The notes under the pieces were generated by a model. The model worked only from the letters and a program-made list of their open reading frames with translations. It did not search any database and was not told where the DNA came from. From Chlorokybus atmophyticus (lineage: Eukaryota > Plantae > Mesostigma and Chlorokybus algae): a stretch of DNA of 64,000 nucleotides. Position 1 is the first letter of the stretch. Each line of letters starts with the position of its first letter. Below, one piece after another: positions 4,100-56,253 of the stretch. The DNA lies in NCBI GenBank assembly GCA_009103225.1, contig RHPI01000773.1:272003-336002 (forward strand), written 5' to 3'. The position numbers were made by a program, and so were the translations under genes.

Positions 4100-5800
4100 A
4101 CTTAAGCAAACCGCGTGCATGCGTCGCATGACAGTGACTGACAAGGGACTAAGGGACTGACAGATGCCTGACCCTGCCTAACCCTATATGACGTAACGGT
4201 TTGGTCCATAAAGGGACTTTTTAGGACGGCCGTTACTATCAAGCAACACATACCGACGATAACCGGTCGATCAATAAGTACAATCGACGGCGGCCTGCCT
4301 GTGACGGCAACACCGCACTTTAAGGTGACGGCCGATTGTCGGTCGTCCCATTTGCGCGATGGCGACCTATCTGTATAGCAGGTAAGTCACGTTTTGGTCA
4401 CATACAGTGACGGCCGACCGTCGGTCGTACCCTGACCGTCAAAAAGTATGCGCGACGGCCTGCCTACTTTGGTAACCCAGTCACCGTTAGTCCCTATCAG
4501 GTGACCTTACCGCGCTTATTAAGTGACGGCTGATCACCGGTCGTGCACATAACGCGGCGGCGACTTACTTATTGTGTGTCAAGTATGATAAGCAAGTGAC
4601 AGCCGGTCCCTAAAGGTCGGCAAGTCGGGACGGTGGTACCGACCGACAAGTCGAGACACTGGTACAATGCAGCCGCCGTACCATGTCAATGGTACGAACA
4701 GTGCCATTGTTGCAATGGCACTATGGTATTATACTAATGGTACGATAGTGCCATTGCGACAATGGTATATTCGTACCATTATAATAATACGATAATGCCG
4801 TTGCGACAACGCGTTTGAATAACTTGGGCTGCCCAAGTTATTCAAGCTCTCAATGGCTTCAAGTTGAACAGAGCGATGTGTACCATTAGTATAATACGAT
4901 AGTGCCATTGCAACAATGGTATATTCGTACCATTATAATAATACGATAATGCCGTTGCGACAACGCGTTTGAATAACTTGGGCTGCCCAAGTTATTCAAG
5001 CTCTGAATGGCTTCAAGTTGAACAGAGCGATGTGGGCGACGGCGGCGGCGGCGGCGGCGGTCTTGGCGGCAACGGCAACGGCTAACAGTAGGTGAGCTTG
5101 GTTGCTGTCTGACGTTGTACTACGCGCAACACCGCATGCCATCTAACCACCGTCCTTGCCTTGGGGCGGCCAGGCCAGGCGGCGGCAGCGGCGGCGGAGA
5201 AGGAACGGCGGCGGCGGAGCTGGAGCGGGCGGTGCAGGAGCCGCAGCTCAGTATAAGGGTAGTGCTAGCAGTAGTACCTAAGGTAGTAGTAGCAGTAGTG
5301 GTAGTGGTAGCAGTAGTGGTAGTCTAGTGGTACTAGCAGTAGTAGTAGTAGCTCAGTATACTACATTGTAATTAATTTATTATTTGTCACGCATTCTTGC
5401 ACAGCTGATGATGACAATCATGTGTGACACCTCATCATGATTAAGCGATACCAGTAGTAGGTACCTTTGAAGGTACACATCATCGACGGTAGGTACCTTA
5501 AGGTACCTGACAATTTTGCTCAGTTAGCGTACAGCCGCCGATACCTAACTGATAAGTATCGGTTAGTTACTTGTTAGTTAGGTCAAGTACCCTTTGCTTA
5601 ACTGTTGGGTACCTGACAGGTACCTATTAATTAGGGTCAGTCCCTTTATGCAGACGGCCGCCAACTAATGAGGACGGCCGTTATGCTCAGGTCCCTGTAT
5701 CGAGATTGCCGGTAGACTGAAGGTCGACAGTCTAAATGAGTATCCTCAGGTGCACGGCCGTTGCTAATATCCAGTCGGCCGGCAGGGAAAACATTTTGCG
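4100..5800. repeat. Palindrome-dense non-coding block with recurrent GACGGCCG, AAGGGACT and AGGTACCT motifs
   Basis: Many short hairpins and palindromes, e.g. AGGTACCTTAAGGTACCT at 5491-5508. A 12-bp inverted pair CATAAAGGGACT lies at 4207-4218 / 5639-5650. (GGC)n and (GTA)n tracts occupy the middle. Confidence 0.6.
4741..5034. repeat. Near-perfect tandem duplication (140-bp units, period 154) each with a 15-bp stem hairpin
   Basis: 4741-4880 matches 4895-5034. Each copy contains TTGAATAACTTGGGC-T-GCCCAAGTTATTCAA. Confidence 0.9.
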
Positions 5801-6369
5801 ACGTGCATGCTGCCTTGCATGAGAATAAAATATTGTACAAGTTGACAACTTGTAACTATTGTTATATACTTTTTCGCCTGCCTTGCCCTACTCTTTGTTT
5901 TTCTCCATGTCGTGCGCATTGCTGTTGAATCTGTGGCGTGGCCACTGCCTCGTTGCCTGCGGACTGCACCACCTTTTACACAATACAGTACTTTGCAACC
6001 GCTTTGGCAATTACAAGCAACCACTAGCGTACGATTGTTGAGTTCTTGCAGAACGTAAGCTCGCTTTACTTAGGTAATTTGGAAGCACGCATGAACACCT
6101 TTGCATGCTTGCTGTGTGCTTGCTCACATGCATCCTTAACATCAGGAGCTTTTGACTTGCAACTTACTCCATAGCACTAAAGTCATTTCTTAAGGTGTTT
6201 TTTGCTTGTTTTGCCTTGCTCGTGTTTTTTGCATGTGTGCATGCGTCTCAGAAGATACGGACTCAGCTGAAGGACCCGACAAGCAAGATCATCCAGAGGT
6301 TGGAGGTGAGACAACTCTACCCGATTAGCAAACTTCACTCTGGATTCCTCCGCTCTACCAGAAGAGCAG

Positions 6370-7972
6370 GTGGGCGAACCCGACCTACTCGCTGCTGCAA
6401 GAATCTGTTCTTCTCTCTATCGTGACCACAGTCCCAAAAGCGAAAAAGACATGGCAGCCATCAATGGCACTCGCAACAGCAGCAGAAGCAGTGGCAGCAG
6501 TAGAAAGCTCGTCTTCATCGATGATGTTGGCTCTATCTCACTAAAAGAGTGGCTCAGTCGCTTCAACCCCATTATCCTGACAGTGAAGATACAAGTAAAG
6601 GGCGAATGGAACGACCAGTAGAAGTTTCTCATTGCCGCTATTTATTTTACCTTGATGAGGTGGCGTTGGCCGTGTGGCACGAGTTTGCCTCTGCACACGA
6701 CCTGCTCGAAGATGGAATTGTTGTCCGCTTTGAGTCCTCTTCTGGTCCCACCATCTTAGCTGCCGATGGATTGGGTGCCCCACGGGCTTTACCCTCTGTG
6801 ACCCCGCGCATTCCACGGGAACGCGTATCTCCTCAAACGGAGGTGACCGACACCGGCAACAGCGCGTCTGGCACCATCGCTGCCACGACGCCATTTCTAG
6901 TATCTAAAGTAGAGGCAGAACAAAACCAACGAGACTGTTGGCAGACGATGCAGCGCAGCTGTCGCCGCCTACCACTCCCTCACCCTTGCGTCATCACCTC
7001 TTGCTGCACCACCCCCTACAGCTCGTCAAAACCACAAGCTGAGGAGGGCAGCTCTGTTGAGACAGCACCACTATCTTCTTGAGCAGACCTGGTTTTTCTA
7101 CTGAACCAATGCATCCCGCTTACACCGCTCAGAAGGTTTAGGAGCTTATTAAGCTCAGAAGAAAGATCAGCGAAACACCCGTTCAGTATTACCAGCGCGT
7201 AGTTAGCCTAGTGGAGGACACTCCTCTGCATGAGATGCCACTGGTTAATCCCTTTTACCTCGCACGGGTGTACATGGAACATCTGGAACCACCCTTGCGC
7301 AAGCATGTCGCCGAGCTCAGCGGCGAGGCCAACTACACATTATGGCTGGCTTACAACAATGCCGTATACTAACAAGACTTGCTGCAAAGGCTGGCTGGCC
7401 TCAATTTCAGCGGTCTCGCACATTGTAGCAGCAGGACGATCCCGGCCTCAACCATTGCTCCGCCAAGGCAAACGCGCACTACTCACGCCGTCATGCACGT
7501 AGAAGACCACCCTCACCTGACCTGTCACAGGTGCGACAAAGTGGGTCACTTTATCAAAGAGTGCTCAATGCAACACGCTGACACCTGCTGCACTCATTGC
7601 GGCATGGACGCGCAGCTTTCAGCAGCTTGCTATACGTTGCATCCGGAGCTTAGGGAAGCTCTGAAAACAGCTCCCTCTCCAGCTGGTGCAAGCGCCATTA
7701 ACAACCTTTAAAACAAGGGAAAAGGGAAGGCTTATTTCATCCACAGTAGCAAGGCTGCAGGCAAAGTCACAGCAAAAGTGGCATTGGTGACCCGAGGCAA
7801 CGCTAATCTTCATAACATACAAGACAAGCTCAAGAGGCTCTTGGCCGACATTGAAAACTTTGGTAGCAGAAGGGACAAGCTTGAGGATCTGCTCAGCTAT
7901 GACAATATAGCAGCTTGCGCTGCGGCCCGACCACCGCACCCGCCTATACGGTTCATAGGGGTAAAGAGCTGA
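6370..7972 (+). pseudogene. Retrotransposon gag remnant with zinc knuckle(s)
   Basis: EWLSRF gag-like segment (6370 ORF), CHRCDKVGHFIKEC CCHC knuckle and a second degenerate CTHC...C (7379 ORF). In-frame stops are present, e.g. TAA at 7709-7711. Confidence 0.75.
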
Positions 7973-10900
7973 CCCGGCTCTAGCTAGTCCAGCCGCTCTT
8001 CAAACCTGCTCGCAGATCGGCCGCATAGACCATCCTCTACCGCAACACTCCCTCTAGCCAGTTTATAGCCTCGGCCCCCGCCGTAGCTCGCCCATCTCAG
8101 GCTACGTCTGACATTGGACCCGACGCTGTGCAACCCTCATGCGAGGTGTTGAAAGACACATTCATCGCTGGGGGCGTCTCCAAGCCACCTGGCAACAACA
8201 CCGCTCCTATCCACCCACCCAGGGGACAAGCCTATTGGTTCTTTTAAACCTGACAGCAACCGAGAATTAGATGGTGGCTCGCACTGGTACTGTCACCCTT
8301 CAGTTAGCTGTAGCATACTTTGCTAATGACACTATTGCAGAGGACCTCGACTTCAGATTAAGCTGAATTCAAACACATGTCCCACAGCTAGTGGCGTCTG
8401 TGGTTGAGAGACATAAGGACGCCCACGGGCTGGCGTACCACGCACGAATCATTAACTCTTTTGAACAACTGCTTTTCCACCTGCCTCCATTCACTCTGGC
8501 AAGCGCTCCTACTGGCTTCTTTCATTATCTAGACACCACGCCAGCAAGTTCGAATCCCGCGCCGACCAGAATGGGCACCGTTGCTCGGCAGCAGCAATGG
8601 AACCTGGCCAAGGTCATTTCTGAGAAGAGCATCGATTCGCCATCTCTCCACACCTCCAGCATCTGCCTCCTACCCTTACGGAGGCACAATGAAATCAGCG
8701 CTAAAGGGCTGCAGTTACCAGGCACGCGCACATTTTATAATAGCATCGACTTGGTCCAGCAAGACGCCTCGCCAGGGTACCTCGGCGCTACCCGGCGGAG
8801 AGACGACAGGAATTTCAGCAGCAACCCCATCATGAGTTGCAAAAAGCGCCATGTCTACTCGTGTGGCCATCCCCAGAGAACGTGGAACGGTGGGCTATAA
8901 AAGCCTTACATACCATTTAAGATGACCCACACATGGCATTTATAACGAACTTGTTTCTACCTCATGAAGACCAGTAGAGGCTCGCGTACCGTGCGTGACG
9001 CTGTGCACGACTGGGTGCGCGAGTTGTTACGACATAAGCGTCACGCAATGAGCAGCTGGTTGACCAATGAACAGCAAGAGCGGCTCCAGAACCTCCACTC
9101 CCCTGAGGACATTGTCATGCGGGATGTACTCGAAGGGCTCGCCGCACTTGAAAGCCAACCGGGTGAACCAGGGGACCTAGTCGACGCCGTCGTGCACTCG
9201 CGCACGATGAGCTAACTAGAAGACATGGCCATGCGCTGGCTAAACGCCCTCGTCGATTGTGACACGAGGGAGTACCGTTATCATCAGCGGCACATACCAC
9301 CCGTATGAGCGGAGATGAACTTTACTACACCGCTCTTGGAGACGGGAATTTCGCCCACCACCTCGGAATACGCCCGATCGTTAATCCCTAACTTGCCGCC
9401 ATTAGCAACAGCCATGCGGTTGCATCAACTTTTCGGCCGGGTATCCACCAACCTGAACTGCAACACTTGGCACAGTACCCTCCACTCCTGCGTGAGTCAT
9501 GGGATAGAGACCACGGACCGTACATGACCCCATGACTAACGTACGCAACCGCATGCGCCTGCGCGCTCCCTTGCAAACGCTTCGCCTCGACCATTGGCAG
9601 CTGCGCGAAGGAGTCTTGCAAGAACGCTGTAACGGTAAAACAACGTGGTTGTTACCCCGGAACCCGGCGCAGTCCCAACCCCAGACCGGCCAGACTTTTC
9701 CCCGGAAACACCAGCTTCCGTGTTCAAGGCCACCATCGCATCCAAAAGAGCATGCCTTTGGGACAGACATCACCGCAGCATGGCAACCCCACAGGAAGAA
9801 GACTTGCATGAGGCGCTGATGTCCGCATTCCAACAAGAATGTTCACTCCGACTGCAGGCACTTTCTGCTTCCACCCCCACAGCTAACAACACTCATACAT
9901 TCGCTACTTGGAGCCAGGAACAATAGGAGCACATTTGCCGGGAGCTGATGCTGATGAGGCAACGCCAGCTTCTGCAAAATGCGTCAACCTACGCACGCTA
10001 AGAATGGAAAAGGCAAACCCACCTGCTGAGTGGCATCAAACCTTTCACTTTACCCCAAATAAAAGGAGGGGGGGGGNNNNNNNNNNNNNNNNNNNNNNNN
10101 NNNNNNNNNNNNNNNNNNNNNNNNNNNNNNNNNNNNNNNNNNNNNNNNNNNNNNNNNNNNNNNNNNNNNNNNNNNNNNNNNNNNNNNNNNNNNNNNNNNN
10201 NNNNNNNNNNNNNNNNNNNNNNNNNNNNNNNNNNNNNNNNNNNNNNNNNNNNNNNNNNNNNNNNNNNNNNNNNNNNNNNNNNNNNNNNNNNNNNNNNNNN
10301 NNNNNNNNNNNNNNNNNNNNNNNNNNNNNNNNNNNNNNNNNNNNNNNNNNNNNNNNNNNNNNNNNNNNNNNNNNNNNNNNNNNNNNNNNNNNNNNNNNNN
10401 NNNNNNNNNNNNNNNNNNNNNNNNNNNNNNNNNNNNNNNNNNNNNNNNNNNNNNNNNNNNNNNNNNNNNNNNNNNNNNNNNNNNNNNNNNNNNNNNNNNN
10501 NNNNNNNNNNNNNNNNNNNNNNNNNNNNNNNNNNNNNNNNNNNNNNNNNNNNNNNNNNNNNNNNNNNNGGGGGCTGTCATTACCACGAAACCTGAGGCCA
10601 TCACCTACCCCATCGCCCGTACAGAAGCGACATGAACACTTGTGTGAGCCACGAGATCTAGCAAAAATAGAGGGCGGCCCTGGCTCTCCTCGGCCAGCAA
10701 ATCAGCGACAATCCATGGCATGGTTTGGCAGCGCAGCGGCGCGGTTTAATCGATCATAAGTTGAGGCGGCTTCCACTTTGCCTATTAATGCCTGCACACC
10801 ACCTGCAGCTTAACCTCTTCGTCAGTGCTGCGGCATAATTGACGAGTTTCGTCGGCATTCGACTCCCTCGCTTTCTCACACGAGCCATAGACTTCTTTAT

Positions 10901-11389
10901 GACCCTGCGCCCCTACGAATCTGGCCCTAGCCGGGCAGAAAACACTGTGCAACAATTTTTTAAAGAACCCAATTTCTTCCACTGGGAGCATCAGCGGGAC
11001 CAATACCTCCTAACCGCCTCGATTCGCAACCATGAGGATGACCAAGAAACCCTAGCACGACGACAGCAAGTGGAGCAGATGCGGGAAGGCACCGGGATAC
11101 CCGAGGAGATGGTGCAAAGACAATCACGGCCCCTCACCGAAGCAAAACGAGAATTGACCGCAGCTTACTTTAGCCTGCTGCCTATTCTGCCGGCCACCTC
11201 CTATGGGACCTGATAAGGCCATCATTGGGAGCGTGCTGTCACTGCCGAAGCCCTATGCTCAGCTCTAATGGTCGCTTCGGACTGCCAGCCCCACCGTGCC
11301 GACTCTGCTGCATTGTCAACCACCCGAGAGCAACCACCTTCACCCACCAACGATGGTGACACGCGCACAGCAATCGTGGTTTGTTCTGA

Positions 11390-11900
11390 TTGAAAATGCC
11401 ACAGCGATTGCCGCTTATCACTTTTTTAAACGCGCGTATGCCGGACCCAAACCTCATTGGGCCGCCTCGCACAACTGACCGGCTCGGCTCGCCCCCTAAC
11501 ATTGCCATGGTCAACAATCAGCGCCCCCACGTTACATTCGCCCACCACTCGTGGTCCCCTATCCACGTCCTTTTCGACACCGGCGCGCACCCAGTCATCT
11601 TGCAATTGGGACGCACTACTGAATGCCTTAGCATCGACTTCAATGTTTTAAATGAATCCTCTCACAAGATCCGCATAGCACAAGGCGGTCTCGAGAACAC
11701 CAGGGGGGAGACCCAGCGCATCCCTCTGCGCTTCACCAGTTATAGCATGGGGAAATCACTGTTCTGAGTGTGTTCAGCCTCATCTCTGACTCAGAGATTT
11801 TTGACATATTCGTTGGCATCATGCAATGATTGAGTCTTTGTTCCCCATTGGCACGTCAATCGACACGTGGTTAGAGCTTGCACTCTTTTAACCACGCTGG
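11390..11900 (+). pseudogene. Retropepsin-like aspartic protease remnant
   Basis: IHVLFDTGAHPVIL catalytic D-T-G motif, followed by a frameshifted FDIFVG and IDTW segment. Confidence 0.75.
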
Positions 11901-12791
11901 CATGAATGAGATGGCACCCCCACAGCTATTCCACTACGCCTTTGCACCTCTTCCTGTTACCCTCTCAAGGCTATTCCTATCCTACTCGTCAACACTGCTT
12001 TGCATTACAACCTTCGCACTCTCAATGAGGATGAAGTTGCACCTTTGGCGCTACGCACGCACCGATCATGAGTATTAGATAGAGCTGAGCGCGGGGGGGG
12101 NNNNNNNNNNNNNNNNNNNNNNNNNNNNNNNNNNNNNNNNNNNNNNNNNNNNNNNNNNNNNNNNNNNNNNNNNNNNNNNNNNNNNNNNNNNNNNNNNNNN
12201 NNNNNNNNNNNNNNNNNNNNNNNNNNNNNNNNNNNNNNNNNNNNNNNNNNNNNNNNNNNNNNNNNNNNNNNNNNNNNNNNNNNNNNNNNNNNNNNNNNNN
12301 NNNNNNNNNNNNNNNNNNNNNNNNNNNNNNNNNNNNNNNNNNNNNNNNNNNNNNNNNNNNNNNNNNNNNNNNNNNNNNNNNNNNNNNNNNNNNNNNNNNN
12401 NNNNNNNNNNNNNNNNNNNNNNNNNNNNNNNNNNNNNNNNNNNNNNNNNNNNNTGGGGGCAGGTCTGTCTCTATATATTAATACAATTGTCGAGATGACA
12501 TCAGTGCAATTGTCTGTGGAAGGATCTGCGCAAGCTATGCAGGCAGGAGTTGCAACTGCGTCGCCGACATCCATAAGCAACCCACGTCCCGAAGTACGTG
12601 GTAAAACAGTCACTGCAACAATTAAGACTCCTCGTGAAGTAGCTAAGCAGAATCCTGCGCTTCGCCGCCAACTACCTCGGGCAATAGCAGCACGCGTGGC
12701 ATCCACACCAGTCACCTCTCCATCAGTGCCCGGCGATCCTCTGCGTCAATTGGACTTGTTCACCGTCCAACTGACACCACAATGCCGCCGC

Positions 12792-13290
12792 CATGGCATC
12801 ACCGTCTTAGCCTGTTTGGAGGAGTCGGCAGTGGCTTGGCAACCGTGCTGAGCGTGGGCATCCCAGTCAGCAAATACTTTTCTTGTGACCCAAGCCAGCA
12901 AGCACAAACATCAGTGTCTCACCACCTGCTTCAGATGCGCAAGAGGTTCCCACTGCTGAAATCGTCTGCAATAGCAGGTAGTCTTCGCGCCTTGCCTTAG
13001 GACATAACTCATCACAAGAAAACACCTGCGCTCATTGGGAGCTCCCCTTCGAGGTGTTGACATCGTCATCGCGGGATGGGAATTTCAAGGTCAATCACAA
13101 GCTGGCAAGGGACTCAGCCCGCAGAACCTCCGGTCCAAGCTGCTTAAGGAGTTAGTTCGTGTCATCCACACACTCAAGCAACAGCAACCTTACAGAGCAC
13201 CTGCATACATTCTCAAGAATGTATTTGCTCAATATAACCGATATAGCGACGTACGCGCTGATTACGCACAAGTCTGCACAATGCTTAGCA
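12792..13290 (+). pseudogene. Cytosine-5 DNA methyltransferase domain (N-terminal half, inactivated)
   Basis: Motif I GITVL/xLFGGVGSG is split by a 1-nt frameshift at ~12810. Motif IV-like VDIVIAGWEFQGQSQAG has TTT at the catalytic Cys position (13083-13085). RSKLLKELVRVI follows, then motif VI-like YILKNV (ENV with E to K). Confidence 0.85.
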
Positions 13291-13291
13291 C

Positions 13292-13420
13292 ACAACCAGC
13301 ATCAAACTCAATGGCAAGCATGCGTGTTGAGCGCTGTTCTTCCAAAAATACGACTTTACCATTACCCACAAGCCTAGCATTGACAACACAAACGCTGATG
13401 GCCTACGTCGCAATCCTAAC
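13292..13420 (+). pseudogene. C-terminal tail of Ty3/Gypsy RNase H
   Basis: The frame starting at 13292 reads TTSIKLNGKHAC*ALFFQKYDFTITHKPSIDNTNADGLRRNP. This matches the Gypsy RH-end consensus (ARWALxLQEYDFxIxHxPGxxNxxADxLSR). Confidence 0.8.
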
Positions 13421-13584
13421 CCCAACATGGTACACGCTACCGGCGCACGGTACAACGGCGACACGCCTCGCAAACACGCCATGTTGGTCGTTGCTGCTGG
13501 CATACGCGCTGAGGCTCGCACTCAAGTGCTTTAAGCTACTATATCCCTGCAAGTGAGAGCGACATCTGGACTAATAAACCCACC

Positions 13585-16279
13585 TTGCAACTGATCAAGA
13601 CCGGAGTTCTACTTAATGGTTTGGATCACACAGAAGCTAACCGCGCGCAGCACCGAGCAAAAAACCACACCTGGAACAACAACGCAGTCTGGCGCATCAT
13701 GAATGATGGGCAGCGCAAGAAGGTGCCTACCCTCAATCGCCGGGCATTCATCTTTGCCAACCTTCATCACCAGCTTGGCACTTCGGCGTGAAGTGCACCA
13801 CCAACCTGGTTCGCGGTGACTATTGGTGGAACGCAACTGAGCAGAGGTGCTGCGGTAGTGCAAGTTTTGTAACCGTATTCGTGCCAGCTTCTCACACTGA
13901 CACCCTCAGCTGCACCCTTTGCCCATTATGGGACTCGGTTATCGCACCGATAAAAATGGCCCCCCAACAGGTTGGTGTTGCTCTCAACTTGAATGAAGAT
14001 CTAGCTATAGCTTAATTAGGGATCCGCATGTAAGCAACATATTGGATTATGCATTTTTCCCTACTGCAGCCACAATTTAGTTTGGAATCTAGCTGCCATT
14101 AAGGTCAAGTAGTTGGTGTGCATTAAGTTCGGTATCCGTCTTTTCTCAAACTTATTAATGTCCACATCCTATAGTATATTTTGGTTAGATCATGTACTAA
14201 GGGGATCAAACTTTGCGTGATCTAACCAAAAATATTATGTCCGCAGTTTGCGGCAAATTGCTAAAACTCACTGGGAAGGAATTCACGACTGCATTGCCAA
14301 GTTTTAAACCTGCGCGAACGAGCCTTGGGATCGAGATACCAAGTAACGACATAAACACTGACCAAGTACACTACGACGACACTGAGCACCGCGTTTGTAA
14401 ACAATATAACCTTACAGCGGCTACCTCAATTATCTCACGTGCCGCAAGAAGTGTTTGATGGATTGCATGCATGTGTCACGCAACGCATGCACCAACAGCT
14501 GCATACAGTACATATGTGTATATATGTGTACATATATACACGGCTACCGATACCGGTATGTTGTTGCCGCTGCATACAGTGTACACAAATATATGTATAT
14601 ATACATATACATATATATATATATGTGTATATACATATATATGCCGGTAGCGTATATGCATATATATACGGCTACCAGTACCCGTGTTTTTGTGCTCAAT
14701 ACATAATCGGGAAGGAAACCACGGGAATGTGGGTGACTTGAGCATGAAGAATGTGTTAGACCTGCCGTCTCGTTCAATCGCAGCGCTTAATTACACGCAA
14801 ATGTTTGCATTAAGTTCCTTGCGTCACCTGTTTTGGCAAGGTTGTTTGCGGTGAGCTGGGGAAGTTTTTAACTCATGTGCTATTACTAATCATAACACAT
14901 GCAAGTAGTAGCCTTCTACATGTACTTGCTTGCCCCGCGGCCTGCTACTAACGGGGCAAGCCATAGACAGGCCGCGGGGTTGAACTCGGCAATGATAAGG
15001 TCATAATATTATTAGGGTTTGTAACAGTGCACCGTAATGGTCGTAACACACACCTTGTTAAGTATACATTCTCGCACTATTAATGGAACCGTTCACAACG
15101 TACATGATGATGTAAAAGGATTTAGCATGCAGCATAAATGCATTTTCGTACTGTCGCCGCGTCCTCAATTGCGTTGGAGAGTATAGTTGCATTGTTAATG
15201 ATTTGGTTGCAACTGTAATAACGATTTACACATGCCTTTCTCACGATCTAAACCTTTAATTACGTTAACGCCAAATCCTCAACATTGTTAAGGATTCGGT
15301 GCTTACGAATGTCACCGGCGGAGTGCCGTTTGTAACAGGTTGTAACAATATTTCGGCTACAGTCATAACATATATAAGCGTCCGCCATGATGTTTTTGGA
15401 AACCATTTATTTACGGCTCCGTTCGTCATAGAGTTGCGGATTCAACCTGACTTGCCACAACCCATTTACACCGGTGTCGCTGGAGTATTGACCTTGCAGG
15501 CGAGCTGCCAATCACTCGTCGTGGCAACCTGTACATATTTGTCGCCATCGAGCACTTTAGCAGTGGGTTGAGTTGGTAACCTGCCAGACAAGACTGCATC
15601 TACGGTGACTCGGGTCTACCTTAAGCACATCCTCGGTAGATTCAACGCCTGCGCAGAGCTCCTCACCGACAGCGGCACTGAATTCCAAGCGGAATTCGGC
15701 ATCTTGCTCAACCGCTCACTCGTTGATCACCATCGCACCAGCCGTGATCATCCGCAAGCTGATGGCCTGGCAGAAAGGATGGTGCAGATCGTTAAGAAGG
15801 CATTGTTGCGCTACTGTGCGACACACCGATAGGAAGAGTGGGATGATTTTCTGCCCTGCCTTGCGATGGGGTACCGCTGCGCTACGCAAGCAGCCGTGCA
15901 TTCCTTCAACCCGTATTTTCTCATGGTTGGGAGAGAACCACTGCTGCCCTTTCACATACTTCACGCCACGCAAGCCGTAGAAGACCTCATCAATAAGCCC
16001 ACGCACATGATGGAGGTACTCACTGCACGTGCCGCTATATCAAGGGCATCCGTGCCCATGGCTCTGGCCAACCTAAAGACAGCAAAACAACGAGACAAGG
16101 GGCGCTATGAATTCGTGCTCAATGGAGGCTACATCACTAGACACGCAAATTGCACGTCAGGCTACGTCTACCGCAAGAAGCAGACTACAAACACCTTTGA
16201 CCCTGCCAGCTACGGCACTGTGTACAAGGTTGTACAGGCTCGCGCCACGGGCACTCTGTCTCTAGGGCTCCATCTATAA
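13585..16279 (+). pseudogene. Integrase (Zn-binding plus rve core), interrupted by a nested insertion
   Basis: VPTLNRRAFIFANLHHQLG/HFG...DYWW Zn-binding region. LHPLPIMGLGYR|WSIDLAGELP is rejoined across the insertion. The core continues LLTDSGTEF...HPQADGLAERMVQIVK. Confidence 0.9.
13945..15476. mobile_element. Non-autonomous DNA transposon, CMC/CACTA-like ends, 3-bp TSD
   Basis: TIRs CACCGATAAAAATGG (13945-13959) and CCATTTACACCGGTG (15462-15476) match 12/15. TCG flanks both sides (13942-13944, 15477-15479). Removing the element and one TCG restores GYRWSID. A TA-rich tract lies at ~14510-14670. Confidence 0.85.
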
Positions 16280-16374
16280 AAACTGAAGATGACCATGTGC
16301 AAAGCTGCTTCCCATGTCGTCTCCCGTACGTGGAAGGCCTTGGCAAACCTCGCCGGGTTCCACGGACCGAGCAA

Positions 16375-16491
16375 TGCACCGGCTGCGCCTCAAACCGCTG
16401 CTCTTTGATGGAATGTGACGCCTGCTTGGAATACTGGCATAAAGCTTGCAACCTCGGTGAGACACGCGCTGCGCGGCCGATCCCAATGTAG
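16375..16491 (+). pseudogene. PHD finger at the polyprotein C-terminus
   Basis: CTGC...MECDACLEYWHKAC supplies the first six ligands of C4-H-C3. The last Cys pair is not seen in frame. Confidence 0.7.
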
Positions 16492-16783
16492 CCTCATCCT
16501 CTACCAGCCAACCATGGCGCTGTTACAGATGCCAAACTCATCACGGGGACGCTGATGACCAGGCCAGGGGGGGGGGGGGGGGGGGNNNNNNNNNNNNNNN
16601 NNNNNNNNNNNNNNNNNNNNNNNNNNNNNNNNNNNNNNNNNNNNNNNNNNNNNNNNNNNNNNNNNNNNNNNNNNNNNNNNNNNNNNNNNNNNNNNNNNNN
16701 NNNNNNNNNNNNNNNNNNNNNNNNNNNNNNNNNNNNNNNNNNNNNNNNNNNNNNNNNNNNNNNNNNNNNNNNNNNNNNNNNNN

Positions 16784-16835
16784 GGGGGTGCTTGTTGAGT
16801 AACTGCCATCCGATAGTTACTCAACAAGCACCCCC
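16784..16835. repeat. Perfect 21-bp stem hairpin with 10-nt loop
   Basis: GGGGGTGCTTGTTGAGTAACT-gccatccgat-AGTTACTCAACAAGCACCCCC. Confidence 0.9.
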
Positions 16836-37225: not shown

Positions 37226-38516
37226 ATGGGTAAGCGCTTGATAGTGTTGTCAATCATGTAACTTGTCGTCGCACGGTAGGGTGCAAGGATTGGTCTGGAG
37301 CTGGTGGTATTGCGCTTGTGCTCAGCTGGCGTTTCAACAGTGTTGTGGTCGCATTGGGGTGCCTGATCTGCCAGACTCAACAACCGCAGTGATCTGGTTT
37401 ACTTAATTGTTGTCCCGAGGAAGTGCGCACGTGAGTTGCATGTTTATTATTGTACAGATCGCCTCAAACATTGCTGCATGCACAGCGCAGCACACACTGC
37501 TTTCTTTTCGCCAAAGCATCACCAGTAGATCTAGCTGATAGCAATTGCAATCCTGCCCAAGCAATTGCCATTCAATCGCCATTTTACTTGTAATATCTTT
37601 TGTTGAGACTAGGGTTGTCTATGGTCAGGTGCCTATAAGTACGTAGAGGAGCTGTGGAAGCGCAAGCAGAGCGATGTCATGCGCTTCTTGATGCGCGTGC
37701 GATGCTGGGAGTACCGCCACTTGCCTTCCGTTGTGCGCGTGTCCCGCCCTTCGCGCCCGGACAAGGCTCGCCGCCTCGGTTACAAGGCCAAGCAGGTTGA
37801 CTAAGCAGATAGATTGCAGTCTCAGCATTCGGTGTTACAGTGGTTGGTAGGTACAGAACCAACATGTGTGCTTCTCAGGGTTTGGTGATTTACCGCGTGC
37901 GCATTCGCCGTGGTGGCCGCAAGCGTCCGGTGTCCAAGGGTATTGTTTACGGTAAGCCCAAGTCTCAGGGTATCACGCAGTTGAAGGCGCAGCGCAACCA
38001 CCGCAGCGTCGCCGAGGAGCGTGCGGGACGTCGCTGCGGCGGTCTGCGCGTCCTCAACTCGTACTGGGTGAACCAGGTAGGTGCCCATTCTTGCTCTCAG
38101 CGTGCATCATGTCGCAAAGCGTGGTGGGATGGCAACTTTGTTAAGAAGCTCAGCTATATGCATTCTGGTTGTATCTACAGTTGTTACTGACAGCTCTATC
38201 AGTTAACACTGGCTCATGGCGTTGTTTTCCTGCAACGCGTGTGGTTGATGTGCTTGTGATGCTGTCACAGGACTCTACCTTCAAGTACTACGAGGTCATC
38301 TTGGTGGATCCCCACCACAACGCCGTGCGCAAGGACCCCCGCCTCAACTGGATATGCAACCCCGTCCACAAGCACCGCGAGCTCCGGGGCCTCACCTCGG
38401 CCGGCAAGGCCTACCGTGGCCTGCGCGGCAAGGGCCATCTGTACCACAAGAACAGGCCCTCGCGCCGCGCTGCCTGGAAGAGGAACAACACACTGTCTCT
38501 CAAGCGATACCGGTAG
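37226..38516 (+). CDS. RPL15: 60S ribosomal protein L15 (exons 37226-37229, 37629-37795, 37879-38076, 38271-38516)
   Basis: [31 protein letters not shown]...[11 protein letters not shown]...[13 protein letters not shown], with canonical GT-AG junctions. Confidence 0.98.
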
Positions 38517-39275: not shown

Positions 39276-42200
39276 TTACCAACCGCCCTGGAAGCCGCCC
39301 CCACCACCCGGAAACCCACCATCAAACGTGAAGTGAAACGTTTGCTGTTGATGCATGTTTTGGTGGTGTCCGGGCCAACCCCCAGGACCCCCTCCACCCC
39401 CCTGATCATTAATGTCTTCTCCCCTGTCATAGCGAGCTTTCAACTCCTCGTTGGTCAACACCTGTGACATAGAATGAATAAGATCCAAAGAATGGCAAAT
39501 TACACAGAGGCGCCAAGTCTCTATGGGTGTATCCGTGCATCGCCGGTAGACCAACCTCATAAGCTTCAGCAACGGCGTGAAACTTCTTCTCCGCCTCCTC
39601 TTTGTTGTCGGTGTTCTTGTCAGGATGCCATTGCAGCGCGAGCCGCTTGTAAGCCTTCTTGATGTCGGCTGTACTCGCAGTTCTGTCAATACCAAGTTCT
39701 TTGTAATAATCTTTCCTAAGGCTCATCTTCAAAAGCCGTTCTGCGCGCTGCAAGGCTTCATGGATGCGCCGATCCTGCATAGCACACATTTGTTCATGAA
39801 CTCTGCTTCTGCACTACCTACATTCACAGAAGGTAAATGGCGTCACAATGAAATTGAACGCCATCGTTTAGCTGCCCGCCCCCTCTTCCCAACCAATAGC
39901 AACACAAATGACAGTTCGCATGCCGGCCAGGCCGCATATCTGTACATATGCTACCTGAGGGTTCTTCTCCTTGGCATTTCTGAAGTCCTGAATGGCGGAC
40001 TCGTAATCTTCTAGCAGCAGCTTGGCCTCGCCGCGCTCAATGATTGCCTCTAGCTGAAGACCCACGGATAAGCCGTGTGACCATCAAGCATGCTACCACA
40101 ACTTCATGCAACATGCGGGGAAATGCACATTGAGCCCTCATGCAGCAGCATCTCTGCAAAGGCCTGAGGTGGTGTACTATGGCCACCTACCTGTTCAGAA
40201 TCAATCTCTAAGGCTTGGTTACAAGACTGGAGCGCATCTTTGGCTTTCTTGAGCTTGACTTGCGACTTACAGAGGCCTATCAACAGCTCCAGGTTCATCA
40301 GAGTGTGCTCAGGGTCCACCTAGCAGAGTGAAGAGAGGTGAGGGGTAAAAGCCCAAAGCGACCACAATACAACTTGACAACTGAACTTGAATGCTGCTTG
40401 CAGGATCTAGATTAAAACTTGCAGACATGATGCCGACACGTAACGTTGCGAACCAGCTATGACCAATCCACTGAGTTATTACGACAGCTGTACCTCCAAT
40501 GCTGACTTGAAATCATCTACAGCTGCAGCATGCTTTCCCGCCTCTGCTTCGGCTTTCGCGCTGGCGGCAAGCTTATCAAGCTGTTTCACCTTTCGATACT
40601 CTTTCTTGCACTCTGTGTGCTCAGGGTCAGACTGCAAAGCCTTCCGATAGTGCCTGCATTGTATAGTACGACAAGTTTTCGGGTTGGCCAAATAACAGAA
40701 CAGCTATGAACAATTGGACACTTGATGATTGACTGCACCATGTGGATACTACACACATGCATGCATGCATGGCGGTTCTGCACAGCTGTTAAAGCCACTG
40801 ACCTCATTGCAACCTCATGGTCCTTGAGGCGGTAGTATCCTCGGCCACGCCAGAGTAGAGCTTGAATGTGATCAGGAGCCAATTTGAGTATCTTCCCGGT
40901 TTCTGCGACAACTGTATCCCAGTCGCCAAAGGATGCTGCAAGCTCGGCAGATAGCAACCGTGCCTGGGATATAACCGAATAACAAGTAATCAAGGGTCAT
41001 CAATACCATCTTTGAAATTTTGAGTACAGCAGCCTGTGCCGCCAATGGATTTACCACATGGCCTCAAGTGTAGCACTGTACAGCCGACTGCCAATACAAA
41101 CAACACGGAATGGATGTCATACCTCAACACAATCTGGTATCTGTTCTAGCGCCATGTTGAGGTACTGCTGAGCGTGCTTGAGATTGTCGTTATCTTGCCA
41201 GCTGTATGCATACTCCAGGTTTTGGCGCGCAGTCTGTGCCAATCCAAGCGTGTAAAAATTAATCCAACAATCTAGCTGTGATGTCTAGTGAGCAACAGCA
41301 AGACTTCAGGAGAGCTATACGCTACTTTTGTATACGATACAATAAGTACTGCATTACCTCCAGTATGTGTTTCTCTTCCGTGGCTGCCTTGTGACCTGCC
41401 CTGATCCGCAGGATTTCTGCAAAGTCCTGTGCTGCCGCGTCAAACTGGCAACACTGCCGCCTTAGTCTACCTCTATGTAGGTACCCCTGGATAAAAGAGG
41501 GGTCCACCTGCACCGCCATGTCCAAGTCCTGGCATACCATCGCACACAGTGGTGTGAGGGATACAACTAACGCACTCGATTACGTATTTCATGAACAGCA
41601 CACAAGGCTTTGCAGTAGGCAGGCAGGCGTCTCACCCTCAACGCCTCACTGTTAAGCCTTTGCTGCAAGTACGCAGCTGCCCGCTTCGTATACCCCAATG
41701 GTGCATTCGGATCCGATTCTGCATTCAGAAACTGCTTTGCTCACAGCACCGACATATTAAATTGCATTCTGCTCCTGAGCGCTGGAACCATGCTCCATAC
41801 CTATAGCTGTTGTATAATGCCGAACTGCAATCGAATACAAACCCTGTGCAACCGCTGAATCGCCATCCCGCATGGCGCCTGCAAGGCACAATACAACATA
41901 CAAGCATGTCATACATGTGCAGAGCTGGAGCTGTCATGTACGTGAAACACCACGCCATGAAGCTGCAGCTTGGAAAGGCGCATGTACAACAGCTGCTTGG
42001 CCAGTGCACACAAAGCACAGTACTGGCAGCCTTTGACAACTAGTAGCTTGTGCGTGAAATTGCAATCGCACGACACAATGCTTCTGACCAACAGTTACAA
42101 CAACAGCAAACCGTCTAGTAAGATTATTTCGTTGAGAGCTGCTGTTAAAGTACGTGAACAACAAGAGGGTACCATTGCAACTGTCGTGCACAATGGCCAA

Positions 42201-46849: not shown

Positions 46850-49745
46850 TCTATGCACAAATGTACAGGTTCTGGTAGTATGTTATCTGTGCAGCCATGG
46901 AGCAAGCCTTTAACATCACGACATTCTATGTGTGCAATGCTCGCACGCCTTTGGCATGCGGCGGCAAGCTCCTCGTAGTATCGGCAAAACCTTGATACTT
47001 CTTTGCCACTCGGGCTTTGCGCTCGAAGCGTCGGTGAAGACGATCGTGCAAACTGCTGTTGTTGCTGCTTCTGCTGCTGGTGTTGATGCCCATTCCTCCT
47101 CGAAGGTATGGTCTTCGCGCTCTTCTTCAGAGGTAAAGGAATGTGGGGTGGAGGGCTCGCTGTCATCAGCTATCTGTGCCGTCCTTGCTGCAGTTATCTG
47201 TTCTTGCGCACCTGCCATCATGACTGCACAACAACAATGCGAACCGATGAGGAACTGTGTGGCCAGCCCAAACAATGTCATTGACTGGTTGATTGAACAA
47301 CAGGACTGAACAAACAAGGTGCTCACTGAGTTTGCTGGGTGGCAACTATAGGCACCAAGGCGCTGTCACTACACACAGACAGAGGCAACGCTTGTAGTCA
47401 AATGCAACAAAGAGTACAGACGCACAGCCTTGTTAAACATATACGATGCGCACGTGTCCACATGATGGTTGCTCTCAATAACGTCATGTTGGTTGTTAGC
47501 AAGGACAAGACCGCTAAGCAGCAGCATTAGTGACAACGACTTGGCAGACAACAGCAGCGGCAGCAAGAAGACTCTGAATCTTACCTATGTGCAACGGCAG
47601 CGTCTTCCTTGCTATTGCCAAGAAGATAGTCGATTTCCACCACGCGACTGGGGTGATATTGCGTGTATGCCTCCTGATTTGCAGATGCGACAGCTTTGTT
47701 GAAAGACCTCTTCTTCATCAGGTCCACATCAACAGCCCTTACACACGCCGGCAGCATGGCCACTGCAGACTCTCTGGCCAGCTTGTTGACGATGGTCACA
47801 GCCGCTTTCGCCATTTGGCTCAGCGCATAGGTAAAAACACACACGCTTGTGCCAAGCAGGTGAAGCACACACACTCACGCAAGCAACGCCCTCTTTCACA
47901 CACAATGTCGCCGCCGCCCACGCACATAGCAAGAGCAAACAACAGCGATCACAGTGCTGCCGCCGATGCAGTTAGACTGACCGCGGCGTCTAGCTTAACC
48001 ATGATTCTGGCATGCTACCGATATCAGTCTAAAATACCCGCGCAATCATCGATATCTGAGTTTCTTACGCAACGTTGTCTTCGCGGTGGGCCGGTTACCC
48101 TTGCAGTTAGACTGACCACAGAAAGTTCCCGCCGAAAACTGAATGCAAGTGATGCGCACTGCAAGCTGCCTGCGGGCGGGCGGCACAGCCAGGTAGCGCT
48201 ACAAGAAGAAGGCGAGACACGACGCGCACTATAGTGGCAGCGGCGGCCTCACAGCCGGGCATTACGATCTCTGTACGAAGGCGGGAACAGGTCCACACTG
48301 CCACGCGGCATTCTCACTCTCTGACACTCAACTTGGGTTACAGCAGATCGGAATGCCCGGCTGTACGCTAGCCACAGCCACAGCAGTGCGCATCATGGTT
48401 CCCGCCTTGCATTCTAAGCAAGGCGGGAACGTCTTGGTCACTTTAACTGTGAAGCTAACCATCTTGCTGCTGAAGACATCGTCAAATGCATAGATATCGA
48501 CAGTTGTGATGAGTGGCTAGCTTTAATATCTGTGGCAGACAGAACCACGGCTAAGTTACACTCCGCAATACAAAGGCTGCTAAGTGCAGCGGCGGCAGCA
48601 TTGTTGTCGCTGTTGTCTGCTCTTGCTATGCGCGAGGGCGGCGGCGGCATTGTGTGCGAGTGAGAGCGCGCGATCGCTATGAGTGTGTGTGCTTGCGCCT
48701 GCTTTATACAAGCGTGTGTATATGTGCCTTTGCGTGCGCAGCCAAATGGCGAAAGCCGCTGTGATTATCGTCATCAAGCTGGCCAGAGAGTATGCAGTGG
48801 CCATGCTACCGGCGTGTGTTTGGGCTGTTGATGTTGCCCTGATGGACAAGAGACATTGTAGAGCAGCCGCATTTGCTAGTCAGGAAGAAGCATACGTGCA
48901 GCGGTTCCCCAGCCAAGTGGTGGAAAACGACTATCTGCCTGGCAAAAGCGAGGACGACGCTGTCGTTGCATAGAGATAAGCATCAAATGTTAATGCTGCT
49001 GTTTGCCAAGTCGTTCTGTTGCTGCTGCTTGTTATTGTGTGTTGTTGCTGCTTGTAATTACTGTTCTTGCCAACAACTATCATAACGTTTTTGAGAGCGA
49101 CCATCATGTGGACACTTATGCGTTGTACTCAACAAGCCTTTGATTTGTGTCTGTGCTCTCTGGTGCGATCAAATACCAGCTTTGCCTATGTCTGTGCAAT
49201 GACAGCGTCTTGTTGCCAGTCAGTTGACCATATATCCTCAGTCTCTGCGCCTTGTCTGTTTGGTCCTGTTATTAAGTCCATCAGCCAATGACATGGGCTT
49301 GCCACACAGTGTTGCCTACGTGTTGTCACCCGCCAACACTCAGCAGCTCGTTTGTTCATTCAACCAACCAATGACATGGTTTAAGCTGGCCACACAGTTT
49401 CTTACCAATTTTATTGTTGTTGTACAGTCATGATGGCGAGTGTGCGAGCATAGACAACTGCAGCGAGGACATTGCGGACAGCTATAACAACGAGCCCTCC
49501 ACGCCACATTTCTTTACCTCGGGAGATGAAGGCGACACCTTTAAGGAGTGGGCATCAACACCAACCTCCAGCATCAGCGGTTGGTCGCGAGGATCTTCAC
49601 CAACCCTTCGAGCGCGCAGCCCAAGTGGCAAGGAAGTTGCGAGGCTATGCCAATACTCTGAAGACCTCGCCACCGCATACCAGAGGCATGCAAGCTTAGA
49701 CATTCATGACTACAGGGAATGTTCTATGGCCCATGCAGCATAGAG
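46850..49745. repeat. Large diverged inverted duplication centred near 48300
   Basis: 47708-47818 is the reverse complement of 48742-48852 (about 12 mismatches in 111 nt). Paralogous peptides SSPTLRAxSPSGKEV occur on opposite strands at ~47000 and ~49600. Confidence 0.85.
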
Positions 49746-55657: not shown

Positions 55658-56253
55658 CACCGCCGCCGCCCCGCCACCAAAGCCAGCGCCAATAGCTAGC
55701 TGAGCCAAATGACGCGCACGCTTTCGAATTGTAAACACCGTCACCGTTAAGCCTATAGTGGAAATCACGGCTAGTTTACCACTAGCCTAGTCGATATCTG
55801 CTGTTGCAATGTGGCTCACAGCTAGACGCCGCCGTTCCTAGCAAACGGCTGTTGAACCGCTCTCTACAGCAACAGGCACAGCCATGCCTTGCCGGCGAGC
55901 AGAGGCTATGCACGCGCTGCGGTAACATGCTGAGCTTGGCGAGGTGGCGCACTGTGCAGCTGGTGGACGTTCGGCTGTCAATACGGACACAAACGCCCCG
56001 GTGCTGGTGCTCGCCACGCCGAGGTGCTGCAGTGCGCTGCTGCCACCCAAGCACTGCTACTTTTGCTGCTTTGCTGCTTCTCGTACTTTTGCAAGCTCGT
56101 TGCAGTGCAGTGTATGGTGCTGCTGCCGTTCGGCATTGTTTGACAGTTTTTCAGTAGCTTGCATGTGTTGCACTTCACGTGCACTACTCTAACACGCTGA
56201 GCATTGCTTTACCTGTGTCGTTGCTTTCTCTTTCAGCAGCCTGCAGCGCAGCT

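What the first reader, a model, noticed from the sequence alone, without database searches (positions are those of the whole stretch)
12792..13290. Ty3/Gypsy retrotransposon that encodes its own cytosine-5 DNA methyltransferase
Seen in sequence: DNMT motifs I (LFGGVG), IV (GWEFQG.S.AG), V/VI (RSKL...YILKNV) sit inside the pol region, downstream of the protease and upstream of the RNase H tail and integrase. Established (recalled, verify): DNMT-carrying retrotransposons were reported in Symbiodinium and Klebsormidium (de Mendoza et al. 2018), so the concept is known but rare. Inference: the ancestral element could methylate its own cDNA or insertion site. This lineage may be an undescribed family or host.
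Basis: partly seen in the sequence, partly recalled or inferred. Interest (0 to 1): 0.85.

Follow-up and report, generated by a model that had tools for sequence, protein, structure and literature searches.

The report
Dead algal retrotransposon carrying DNMT3 methyltransferase
This is a broken copy of a Gypsy-type jumping gene, likely from a green alga, that still holds the front half of its own DNMT3-like DNA-methylating domain; such elements are already described, and in intact relatives the enzyme likely methylates the element's new DNA copies.

Summary
At 12806-13289 lies the N-terminal half of a DNMT3-type cytosine methyltransferase. Pfam PF00145 misses it, but a profile of 24 intact relatives scores it at 62 and 42 bits, against at most -1.6 in 20 shuffles. 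It sits in a Gypsy element: gag, protease, DNMT, RNase H tail, integrase, PHD finger.

This copy is dead. It has Phe at the catalytic Cys, Lys at the motif VI Glu, a stop and a frameshift. A deletion of about 2 kb removed the rest of the DNMT, the whole reverse transcriptase and most of RNase H, and a CACTA-like insertion splits the integrase.

The DNMT is a family trait, not a nested insertion. Relatives share the domain order, keep the Cys in 147 of 151 aligned rows (4 gaps), and occur in Closterium, Marchantia and Sphagnum. The window's integrase groups with that order (support 97).

This is the known kind KnitGypsy-Dnmt3 (de Mendoza 2018). The scan already noted it on other DNA (18 findings, at least 6 genomes). 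A side result is a sister architecture with the DNMT after RNase H, including the chlorophyte Scenedesmus.

The parts
7121..7732 (+). gag-like region with zinc knuckle (CCHC about 7520-7567), decayed; its link to the pol part crosses 3.7 kb of unassigned sequence and an N gap
   Evidence: Pfam PF00098 E 2.9e-4, 21.2 bits, above cut-off; family gag-protease profile 63 bits; 3 stops
7740..11400 (+). unassigned stretch between gag and protease with one stop-poor frame; contains a 492-base N gap
   Evidence: 2-4 stops per 199 codons in one frame against 7-11 in the others in three 600-base bins; no significant match in Pfam, PDB, PHROGs or the session's relatives
11471..11948 (+). aspartic protease region (LFDTG at about 11570-11584), frameshifted
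   Evidence: family profile 17.8 and 11.2 bits; tblastn to P0040 and P0080; no Pfam hit of its own
12101..12453 (.). 353-base assembly gap at a poly-G run, between protease and DNMT
12806..13289 (+). N-terminal half (motifs I-VI) of a DNMT3-type C5 methyltransferase; one stop, one frameshift, Phe at the motif IV Cys (13083-13085), Lys at the motif VI Glu (13215-13217)
13289..13295 (+). deletion junction; about 650-700 residues (1.95-2.1 kb) missing: DNMT motifs VII-X, linker, all of the reverse transcriptase, most of RNase H
   Evidence: comparison with four intact polyproteins; downstream profile starts at position 486 of 1060
13295..13462 (+). C-terminal tail of Gypsy RNase H
   Evidence: 39-61% identity to relatives
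13537..13944 (+). integrase N-terminal part with H2C2 zinc finger, frameshifted
   Evidence: PF17921 E 0.008, below cut-off; family profile
13945..15476 (.). nested 1532-bp AT-rich insertion with 15-bp terminal inverted repeats (12 of 15 match, starting CACCG) and a 3-bp target duplication; CACTA-like, no transposase seen
   Evidence: one contig of run X1 joins 13917 to 15477
15477..16267 (+). integrase catalytic core and C-terminal part
   Evidence: 235.5 bits to family profile; 42-47% identity to the closest relatives
16279..16455 (+). decayed PHD finger at the integrase C-terminus
   Evidence: tblastn to 30 of 150 representatives; relatives carry PF00628 here; no Pfam hit of its own
16567..16585 (+). 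poly-G run, likely the polypurine tract; relatives have a G-run at the same place before their 3' repeats
   Evidence: seen in L033, L064, L026 of 6 loci printed
16784..16835 (.). perfect 21-bp hairpin directly after the gap that follows the poly-G run; possible start of the 3' repeat
   Evidence: no matching 5' repeat found

Best explanation
This is a dead, internally deleted copy of a Gypsy retrotransposon family that carries a DNMT3-type cytosine methyltransferase between protease and reverse transcriptase, in a host that is likely a green alga, and in intact family members the enzyme would likely methylate the element's own newly made DNA. Shown: the domain's identity, its fixed place in the polyprotein of relatives, conservation of its catalytic residues across the family, and the lesions of this copy. 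Inferred steps: (1) the DNMT is translated with Pol and packed into the particle beside reverse transcriptase; (2) it methylates the double-stranded cDNA de novo, probably at CG, before integration; (3) the PHD finger on integrase reads chromatin at the target site; (4) a pre-methylated copy resembles host DNA or sets the chromatin state of the new insertion. This copy does none of this. I put about 0.9 on the identity and about 0.55 on cDNA methylation as the role.
For: Family profile hits at 62 and 42 bits against at most -1.6 in 20 shuffles. Collinear order gag-PR-DNMT-RNase H tail-INT-PHD, matching single-frame polyproteins P0041, P0045 and P0054. In metagenome loci picked by DNMT patterns (best 80 of 179): protease upstream in 66 of 68, RT downstream in 40 of 43 and integrase in 28 of 33 loci with enough flank (many are repeat assemblies of the same insertions). 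The window's integrase falls in a 13-row group (SH-aLRT 97) with all 6 DNMT-before-RT rows and none of the 44 DNMT-after-RNase H rows. The family profile ranks DNMT3A first (88.6 bits), then the next non-DNMT3 entry 4onj (49.9) and M.HhaI (40). A model of relative P0076 (pLDDT 95.6) matches DNMT3A/B/C, TM 0.62-0.72 over the query. Cys is kept in 147 of 151 aligned rows (4 gaps) and Glu in 148 of 151. Median dN/dS is 0.33 for the DNMT and 0.37 for RT-RNase H over 39 loci (pairs not independent). Retrotransposon Dnmt3 domains of Symbiodinium methylated CG de novo in yeast (PMC5890265).
Against: No PF00145 hit for this copy and no word-search homologue. Protease and DNMT are separated by an N gap, and no contig of run X1 was seen to bridge it or the deletion junction. 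The window's DNMT has no supported place in its tree (no starred set holds it). No terminal repeat pair was found in the window. The Klebsormidium Gypsy DNMT showed no activity in yeast, which the authors call inconclusive. The element is not more CpG-poor than the host flank (observed/expected 0.73-0.90 against 0.71), so composition gives no sign of self-methylation. No Klebsormidium sequence was retrieved for direct comparison.
Confidence: 0.8

Rival explanations
1. The family's DNMT3 acts on the host genome or the insertion site after integration (self-silencing, or silencing of competing elements) rather than on cDNA in the particle.
For: Several relatives are gag-protease-DNMT frames that end after the DNMT, apart from RT (P0040, P0042, P0044, P0046, P0056), so the enzyme need not travel fused to RT. 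An earlier scan note (e1-10584229) suggested this split. The authors of PMC5890265 list chromatin effects at the insertion site and slowed transposition as options.
Against: Other relatives have DNMT and RT in one frame (P0021, P0041, P0043, P0045, P0054, P0099). In 18 moss-like loci with DNMT and RT in the same frame, the stops between them were at varying positions and absent in 3, so I found no conserved stop. The domain has no chromatin reader of its own in the Pfam scans.
Confidence: 0.3
2. The DNMT fragment is an independent insertion or host-gene capture in an ordinary Gypsy copy, or a chimera of two elements joined by the assembly.
For: The fragment has an N gap upstream and an abrupt junction downstream. 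All five long gaps sit at homopolymer G or C runs. The gag-protease spacing is far longer than in relatives.
Against: Both sides of the junction map in order onto single polyproteins. The DNMT's best matches are retrotransposon DNMTs of this family (38-43% identity). The integrase independently groups with DNMT-before-RT elements. No N gap lies between the DNMT, the RNase H tail and the integrase.
Confidence: 0.07
3. The fragment is a domesticated or still useful non-catalytic DNA-binding module, with the Cys and Glu changes selected.
For: Both catalytic positions are changed while neighbouring motif residues persist. Earlier scan notes describe catalytically dead DNMT-like domains in other Gypsy elements (e1-7503896; not tested here).
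Against: A stop, a frameshift and loss of half the fold. Ten stops in 977 codons are spread over the element's domains, which points to neutral decay.
Confidence: 0.03

Closest known systems
KnitGypsy-Dnmt3 of Klebsormidium nitens (de Mendoza et al. 2018, PMC5890265; read parts 1-3 of 7, passages and the Discussion; Fig. 4 itself not held); called 'streptophytes (Gypsy-DNMT3)' in bioRxiv 10.64898/2026.05.21.726589 (passages read)
   Same: Unpermuted Dnmt3-type domain inside Gypsy Pol, no introns seen, conserved catalytic residues and purifying selection in relatives, and DIRS-like A-coding-B-A-B repeats in relatives (5 of 22 long loci, 3 distinct insertions).
   Different: This copy is dead and lacks RT. 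Its repeats are not detectable. It has a long unassigned region between gag and protease. I could not see the domain order of the Klebsormidium element or compare sequences with it. The passages I read name only K. nitens or 'streptophytes' as hosts.
SymbioDIRS-Dnmt3 and SymbioLINE-Dnmt of Symbiodinium (PMC5890265)
   Same: Retrotransposon-borne C5 DNMT; SymbioDIRS-Dnmt3 also has Dnmt3 in Pol at two different positions and methylates CG de novo in yeast.
   Different: Those use a tyrosine recombinase or a LINE endonuclease; this element has a DDE-type (rve) integrase with a PHD finger.
EpiLTRs of Cymbomonas and Euglena (bioRxiv 10.64898/2026.05.21.726589, passages read)
   Same: LTR/Gypsy-like elements with a C5 DNMT and a chromatin-reader domain, one in a green alga.
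   Different: Their DNMT is sister to DNMT4, is appended to the 3' end of pol in Cymbomonas, and comes with a Dam methylase and a chromodomain; none of these was seen here.

Membership tests
Gypsy-Dnmt3 (KnitGypsy-Dnmt3 kind) | C5 DNMT of Dnmt3 type with unpermuted motif order | tested here: met
   Motifs I-VI in order in the window; relatives rank DNMT3A first by sequence, profile and fold
Gypsy-Dnmt3 (KnitGypsy-Dnmt3 kind) | DNMT lies within the pol of a Gypsy element (RT-RNase H-integrase order) | tested here: met
   Protease, DNMT, RNase H tail, integrase, PHD collinear in the window; full order in P0041, P0045, P0054
Gypsy-Dnmt3 (KnitGypsy-Dnmt3 kind) | DNMT shares an ORF with RT and RNase H | tested here: inconclusive
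   RT is deleted in this copy; true for several relatives, while others end after the DNMT
Gypsy-Dnmt3 (KnitGypsy-Dnmt3 kind) | Key catalytic residues conserved | tested here: not met
   Not in this copy (Phe for Cys, Lys for Glu). Met in the family: Cys 147 of 151, Glu 148 of 151 aligned rows. This marks the copy as decayed, not the lineage as different.
Gypsy-Dnmt3 (KnitGypsy-Dnmt3 kind) | DIRS-like split repeats A-coding-B-A-B | tested here: inconclusive
   No repeat pair in the window, with an N gap at the expected 3' start; present in 5 of 22 long loci of relatives
Gypsy-Dnmt3 (KnitGypsy-Dnmt3 kind) | DNMT under purifying selection across copies | tested here: met
   For moss-like relatives only: median dN/dS 0.33 (range 0.23-0.44) over 118 non-independent pairs, RT-RNase H 0.37; the paper reports below 0.2
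Gypsy-Dnmt3 (KnitGypsy-Dnmt3 kind) | One clade with the K. nitens retrotransposon Dnmt3 sequences | not testable with these tools
   No protein named Klebsormidium was returned; the supplement search found no element sequence
Gypsy-Dnmt3 (KnitGypsy-Dnmt3 kind) | De novo DNA methylation activity | not testable with these tools
   Bench assay; not shown for the Klebsormidium domain either
SymbioDIRS-Dnmt3 | Tyrosine recombinase as integrating enzyme | tested here: not met
   rve/H2C2 integrase instead
EpiLTR | Dam methylase, chromodomain and DNMT4-sister DNMT | tested here: not met
   No Dam or chromo family in Pfam scans of the window frames or of 47 relatives; DNMT is Dnmt3-like
CACTA (En/Spm) non-autonomous element, nested insert | Short terminal inverted repeats starting CAC and a 3-bp target duplication (definition recalled) | tested here: met
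   12 of 15 match and a TCG duplication; the integrase reading continues across the insert

The most novel reading that the evidence does not exclude
One ancient DNMT3 capture founded a large Gypsy clade across the whole green lineage (251 clusters at 50% identity with E up to 1e-30), in which the methyltransferase sits before RT in one integrase group (named members all streptophytes) and after RNase H in the other (the one named member is the chlorophyte Scenedesmus). This window would be a deep, unsampled algal branch that also carries a protein region of up to about 1000 residues of unknown kind between gag and protease. I found no paper describing the chlorophyte form or the two positions.
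Probability: 0.35. Interest if true: 0.55.

Novelty: new member of a known kind. Interest (0 to 1): 0.3.

Why it matters
A transposon that carries the host's silencing enzyme is a real puzzle, and the role of these DNMTs is still open (PMC5890265, Discussion). This copy cannot address it: it is a half-domain pseudogene. Its value is as one more host record. The wider family seen through it is more useful: it is large, keeps its catalytic residues, has members in the model liverwort Marchantia and in Closterium, and has a second Pol architecture in a chlorophyte. That gives many natural DNMT domains to assay where the single Klebsormidium test was inconclusive.

Tried and rejected
No host genome is held, so copy number and intact siblings could not be searched. 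Pfam found nothing on the DNMT pieces or the read-through; a word search found no homologue; PDB gave only weak DNMT3A hits at E about 0.8. The Atlas gave no result. Terminal repeats: none by repeat finder, self-blastn or local alignment against shuffles; two reverse-strand local scores of 41 against a shuffle maximum of 32 were short and not pursued. Sequencing runs: one holder at share 0.05, no RNA holder listed; its contigs do not cover the deletion junction or the gaps, which proves nothing. The gag-protease interval had no significant match in Pfam, PDB, PHROGs, session relatives or earlier findings. IMG/VR gave 6 short weak matches, not examined further. The motif census of the 80 loci was biased by the scan pattern and is not used. 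Trees are quick-mode with SH-aLRT only; the careful integrase search did not finish. I dropped 17 near-copy ids from the integrase tree, and 13 near-copy ids, 36 of 72 type-B rows and all rows that could not be assigned an architecture from the DNMT tree. The host could not be named. An RPL15 exon ranks entries I recall as plant ribosomes first; a telo-box lies before RPL15 (its meaning is recalled); GC is about 52%. The integrase group's named members are streptophytes. This suggests a green alga, more likely streptophyte, but does not show it.

Full report
Observation. The named motifs are present at the stated place, in two reading frames with one stop and one frameshift. Pfam PF00145 does not detect them, either as separate frames or read through with X at the two breaks. 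A word search found no homologue, and PDB gave only DNMT3A hits at E about 0.8. I therefore looked for relatives through the integrase. That search gave 8 proteins, two named Calypogeia fissa and one Sphagnum magellanicum. One cluster member, P0021, is a single frame with DNMT (PF00145, 27.8 bits, above cut-off), RT, RNase H, integrase and PHD finger. Its DNMT region retrieved 20 more proteins, four of them named Marchantia, and 251 clusters at E up to 1e-30 in the representative library. A profile of 24 distinct near-full domains scores the window at 42.0 bits (12806-13015, profile 8-78) and 61.8 bits (13005-13289, profile 76-165). Twenty shuffles reach at most -1.6 bits. The domain is real, and only its first half is present.

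Anatomy. Family profiles map in order on the plus strand: gag with zinc knuckle 7121-7732, protease 11471-11948, DNMT 12806-13289, RNase H tail from 13295, integrase zinc finger to 13944, integrase core 15477-16267, PHD 16279-16455, then a poly-G tract. Against four intact polyproteins, 651-701 residues are missing at 13289-13295. These are DNMT motifs VII-X, the linker, all of RT and most of RNase H. A 1532-bp insertion with 15-bp terminal inverted repeats and a 3-bp duplication interrupts the integrase, and one contig of run X1 joins across it. Ten stops fall in 977 aligned codons. Motif IV has Phe where 147 of 151 aligned family rows have Cys (4 gaps), and motif VI has Lys where 148 of 151 have Glu. 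The copy is dead. Two caveats: N gaps at poly-G runs lie between gag and protease and between protease and DNMT, and about 3 kb between gag and protease has no homologue. The gag may therefore belong to another copy.

Is the DNMT part of the element? Yes. Metagenome loci were picked by DNMT patterns alone (best 80 of 179). Among those with enough flank, 66 of 68 have protease upstream, 40 of 43 RT downstream and 28 of 33 integrase downstream. These loci are close moss-like copies, partly the same insertions assembled more than once, so they show one subfamily well rather than many. Across the 150 best representatives, 68 have the DNMT after RNase H, 3 before RT, and 79 cannot be assigned; among the 20 word-search hits it is 4, 7 and 9. 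In a quick integrase tree of 72 rows the window falls in a 13-row group (SH-aLRT 97) with all 6 DNMT-before-RT rows and none of the 44 others, as the deletion reading predicts. The DNMT half-domain tree places it among the same type, but without support. Named members of that type are Closterium, Marchantia and Sphagnum; the one named member of the other type is Scenedesmus.

What kind of DNMT. P0021's domain and a 42-sequence profile both rank DNMT3A first, then DNMT3C and 3B, ahead of DRM2 and bacterial enzymes. An AlphaFold model of relative P0076 (pLDDT 95.6) matches DNMT3A/B/C-DNA complexes at E about 1e-20. Over 39 moss-like loci the DNMT shows median dN/dS 0.33, like RT-RNase H at 0.37 (pairs not independent, copies decayed).

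Mechanism. Shown: a catalytically conserved DNMT3 domain is a fixed part of the family's polyprotein. Inferred: it is made with Pol, is present where cDNA is made, and methylates that cDNA de novo before integration, while the PHD finger helps choose chromatin. Support is indirect. Symbiodinium DIRS Dnmt3 domains methylate CG in yeast, and the authors propose cDNA methylation (PMC5890265). Against: the Klebsormidium domain was inactive in that assay (called inconclusive), and this element is no more CpG-poor than its host flank. Action on the insertion site or on the host genome after integration is the main rival. A conserved stop after the DNMT, suggested by an earlier scan note, was not seen in my loci, though several relatives do end there.

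Host. No genome is held. An RPL15 exon ranks entries I recall as plant ribosomes first. The region is intron-rich, about 52% GC and mildly CpG-poor. A green alga is likely, and a streptophyte alga somewhat more so given the integrase group, but this is not shown.

Comparison with what is known. De Mendoza et al. 2018 describe KnitGypsy-Dnmt3: an unpermuted Dnmt3 in Gypsy Pol with DIRS-like repeats. I read parts 1-3 of 7, passages and the Discussion. Fig. 4 and supplementary figures were not available, and three supplementary text files gave no element sequence, so its domain order is unknown to me. A 2026 preprint refers to 'streptophytes (Gypsy-DNMT3)' as previously described (passages). PMC12344493 section 5 repeats this, writing 'LTR Copia'. 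PMC6453930 passages concern host DNMT3 only. Relatives here show the A-coding-B-A-B repeats in 5 of 22 long loci; the window shows none. It works like, and is very probably a decayed member of, that kind; monophyly with the Klebsormidium sequences was not testable. Five literature searches listed no paper on land-plant or chlorophyte members or on the two DNMT positions, but the library lacks most subscription papers. The scan itself has 18 earlier notes on such elements in at least 6 genomes and one on a split-repeat Gypsy in this genome. These are leads, not support.

Verdict. The feature is real and was correctly spotted, but it is a pseudogenised half-domain in one more host of a described kind of element. 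Novelty: new member of a known kind. Interest 0.3. The more interesting reading concerns the whole family (green-lineage-wide, two Pol positions), not this copy.

Noticed in passing
window 13945-15476: Nested 1532-bp CACTA-like non-autonomous insertion in the integrase, with terminal inverted repeats and a 3-bp target duplication; run X1 holds diverged copies of it and one sibling junction without it.
   Followed up: partly
window 7740-11400: About 3 kb between gag and protease with one stop-poor frame and no homologue found. A purine run before the gap at 10061-10076 could be a second polypurine tract, so this may be a nested element or an unknown domain.
   Followed up: partly
P0111, P0231 (Scenedesmus sp. 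PABB004 pol) and 68 of 150 representatives: Second architecture with the DNMT3 between RNase H and integrase; it separates from the DNMT-before-RT group in the integrase tree (support 97) and more weakly in the DNMT tree (76).
   Followed up: partly
P0048, P0049, P0055, P0057 (Marchantia), P0009 (Sphagnum), P0163, P0236 (Closterium): Annotated plant and algal gene models that are in fact Gypsy-DNMT3 pieces; P0048 is named a DNA cytosine methyltransferase in UniRef, so DNMT counts for these genomes may include transposon copies.
   Followed up: partly
L033 1897-11298, L064 5948-16126, L075 6169-17815: Moss-like relatives with A-coding-B-A-B split repeats; a poly-G tract precedes the first B in L033 and L064.
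   Followed up: partly
window 16784-16835 and 5836-5854: A perfect 21-bp hairpin after the poly-G tract and a 9-bp palindrome upstream of gag; either may mark an element end.
   Followed up: no
window 47115-49535: Decayed foldback: nested inverted arms of 75-89% complementarity over about 2.4 kb.
   Followed up: no
window 4688-5034: Tandem 140-bp duplication built of palindromes.
   Followed up: no
window 5430-5870: Segment on which many contigs of run X1 lie, likely a dispersed repeat.
   Followed up: no
window 37227-38516, 39430-39813, 53420-53908, 56201-58121: Host genes: ribosomal protein L15 with three introns and an upstream telo-box, a DnaJ-domain gene, a transglutaminase-like gene and a hydroxyisobutyrate/6-phosphogluconate dehydrogenase-like gene.
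   Followed up: partly
window 17000-64000: CpG observed/expected 0.71 with TpG and CpA excess through the gene-rich part, consistent with gene-body CG methylation in the host.
   Followed up: no
window gaps 1487, 10077, 12101, 16586, 28669: All five long N gaps sit at poly-G or poly-C runs, a sign of short-read dropout.
   Followed up: no
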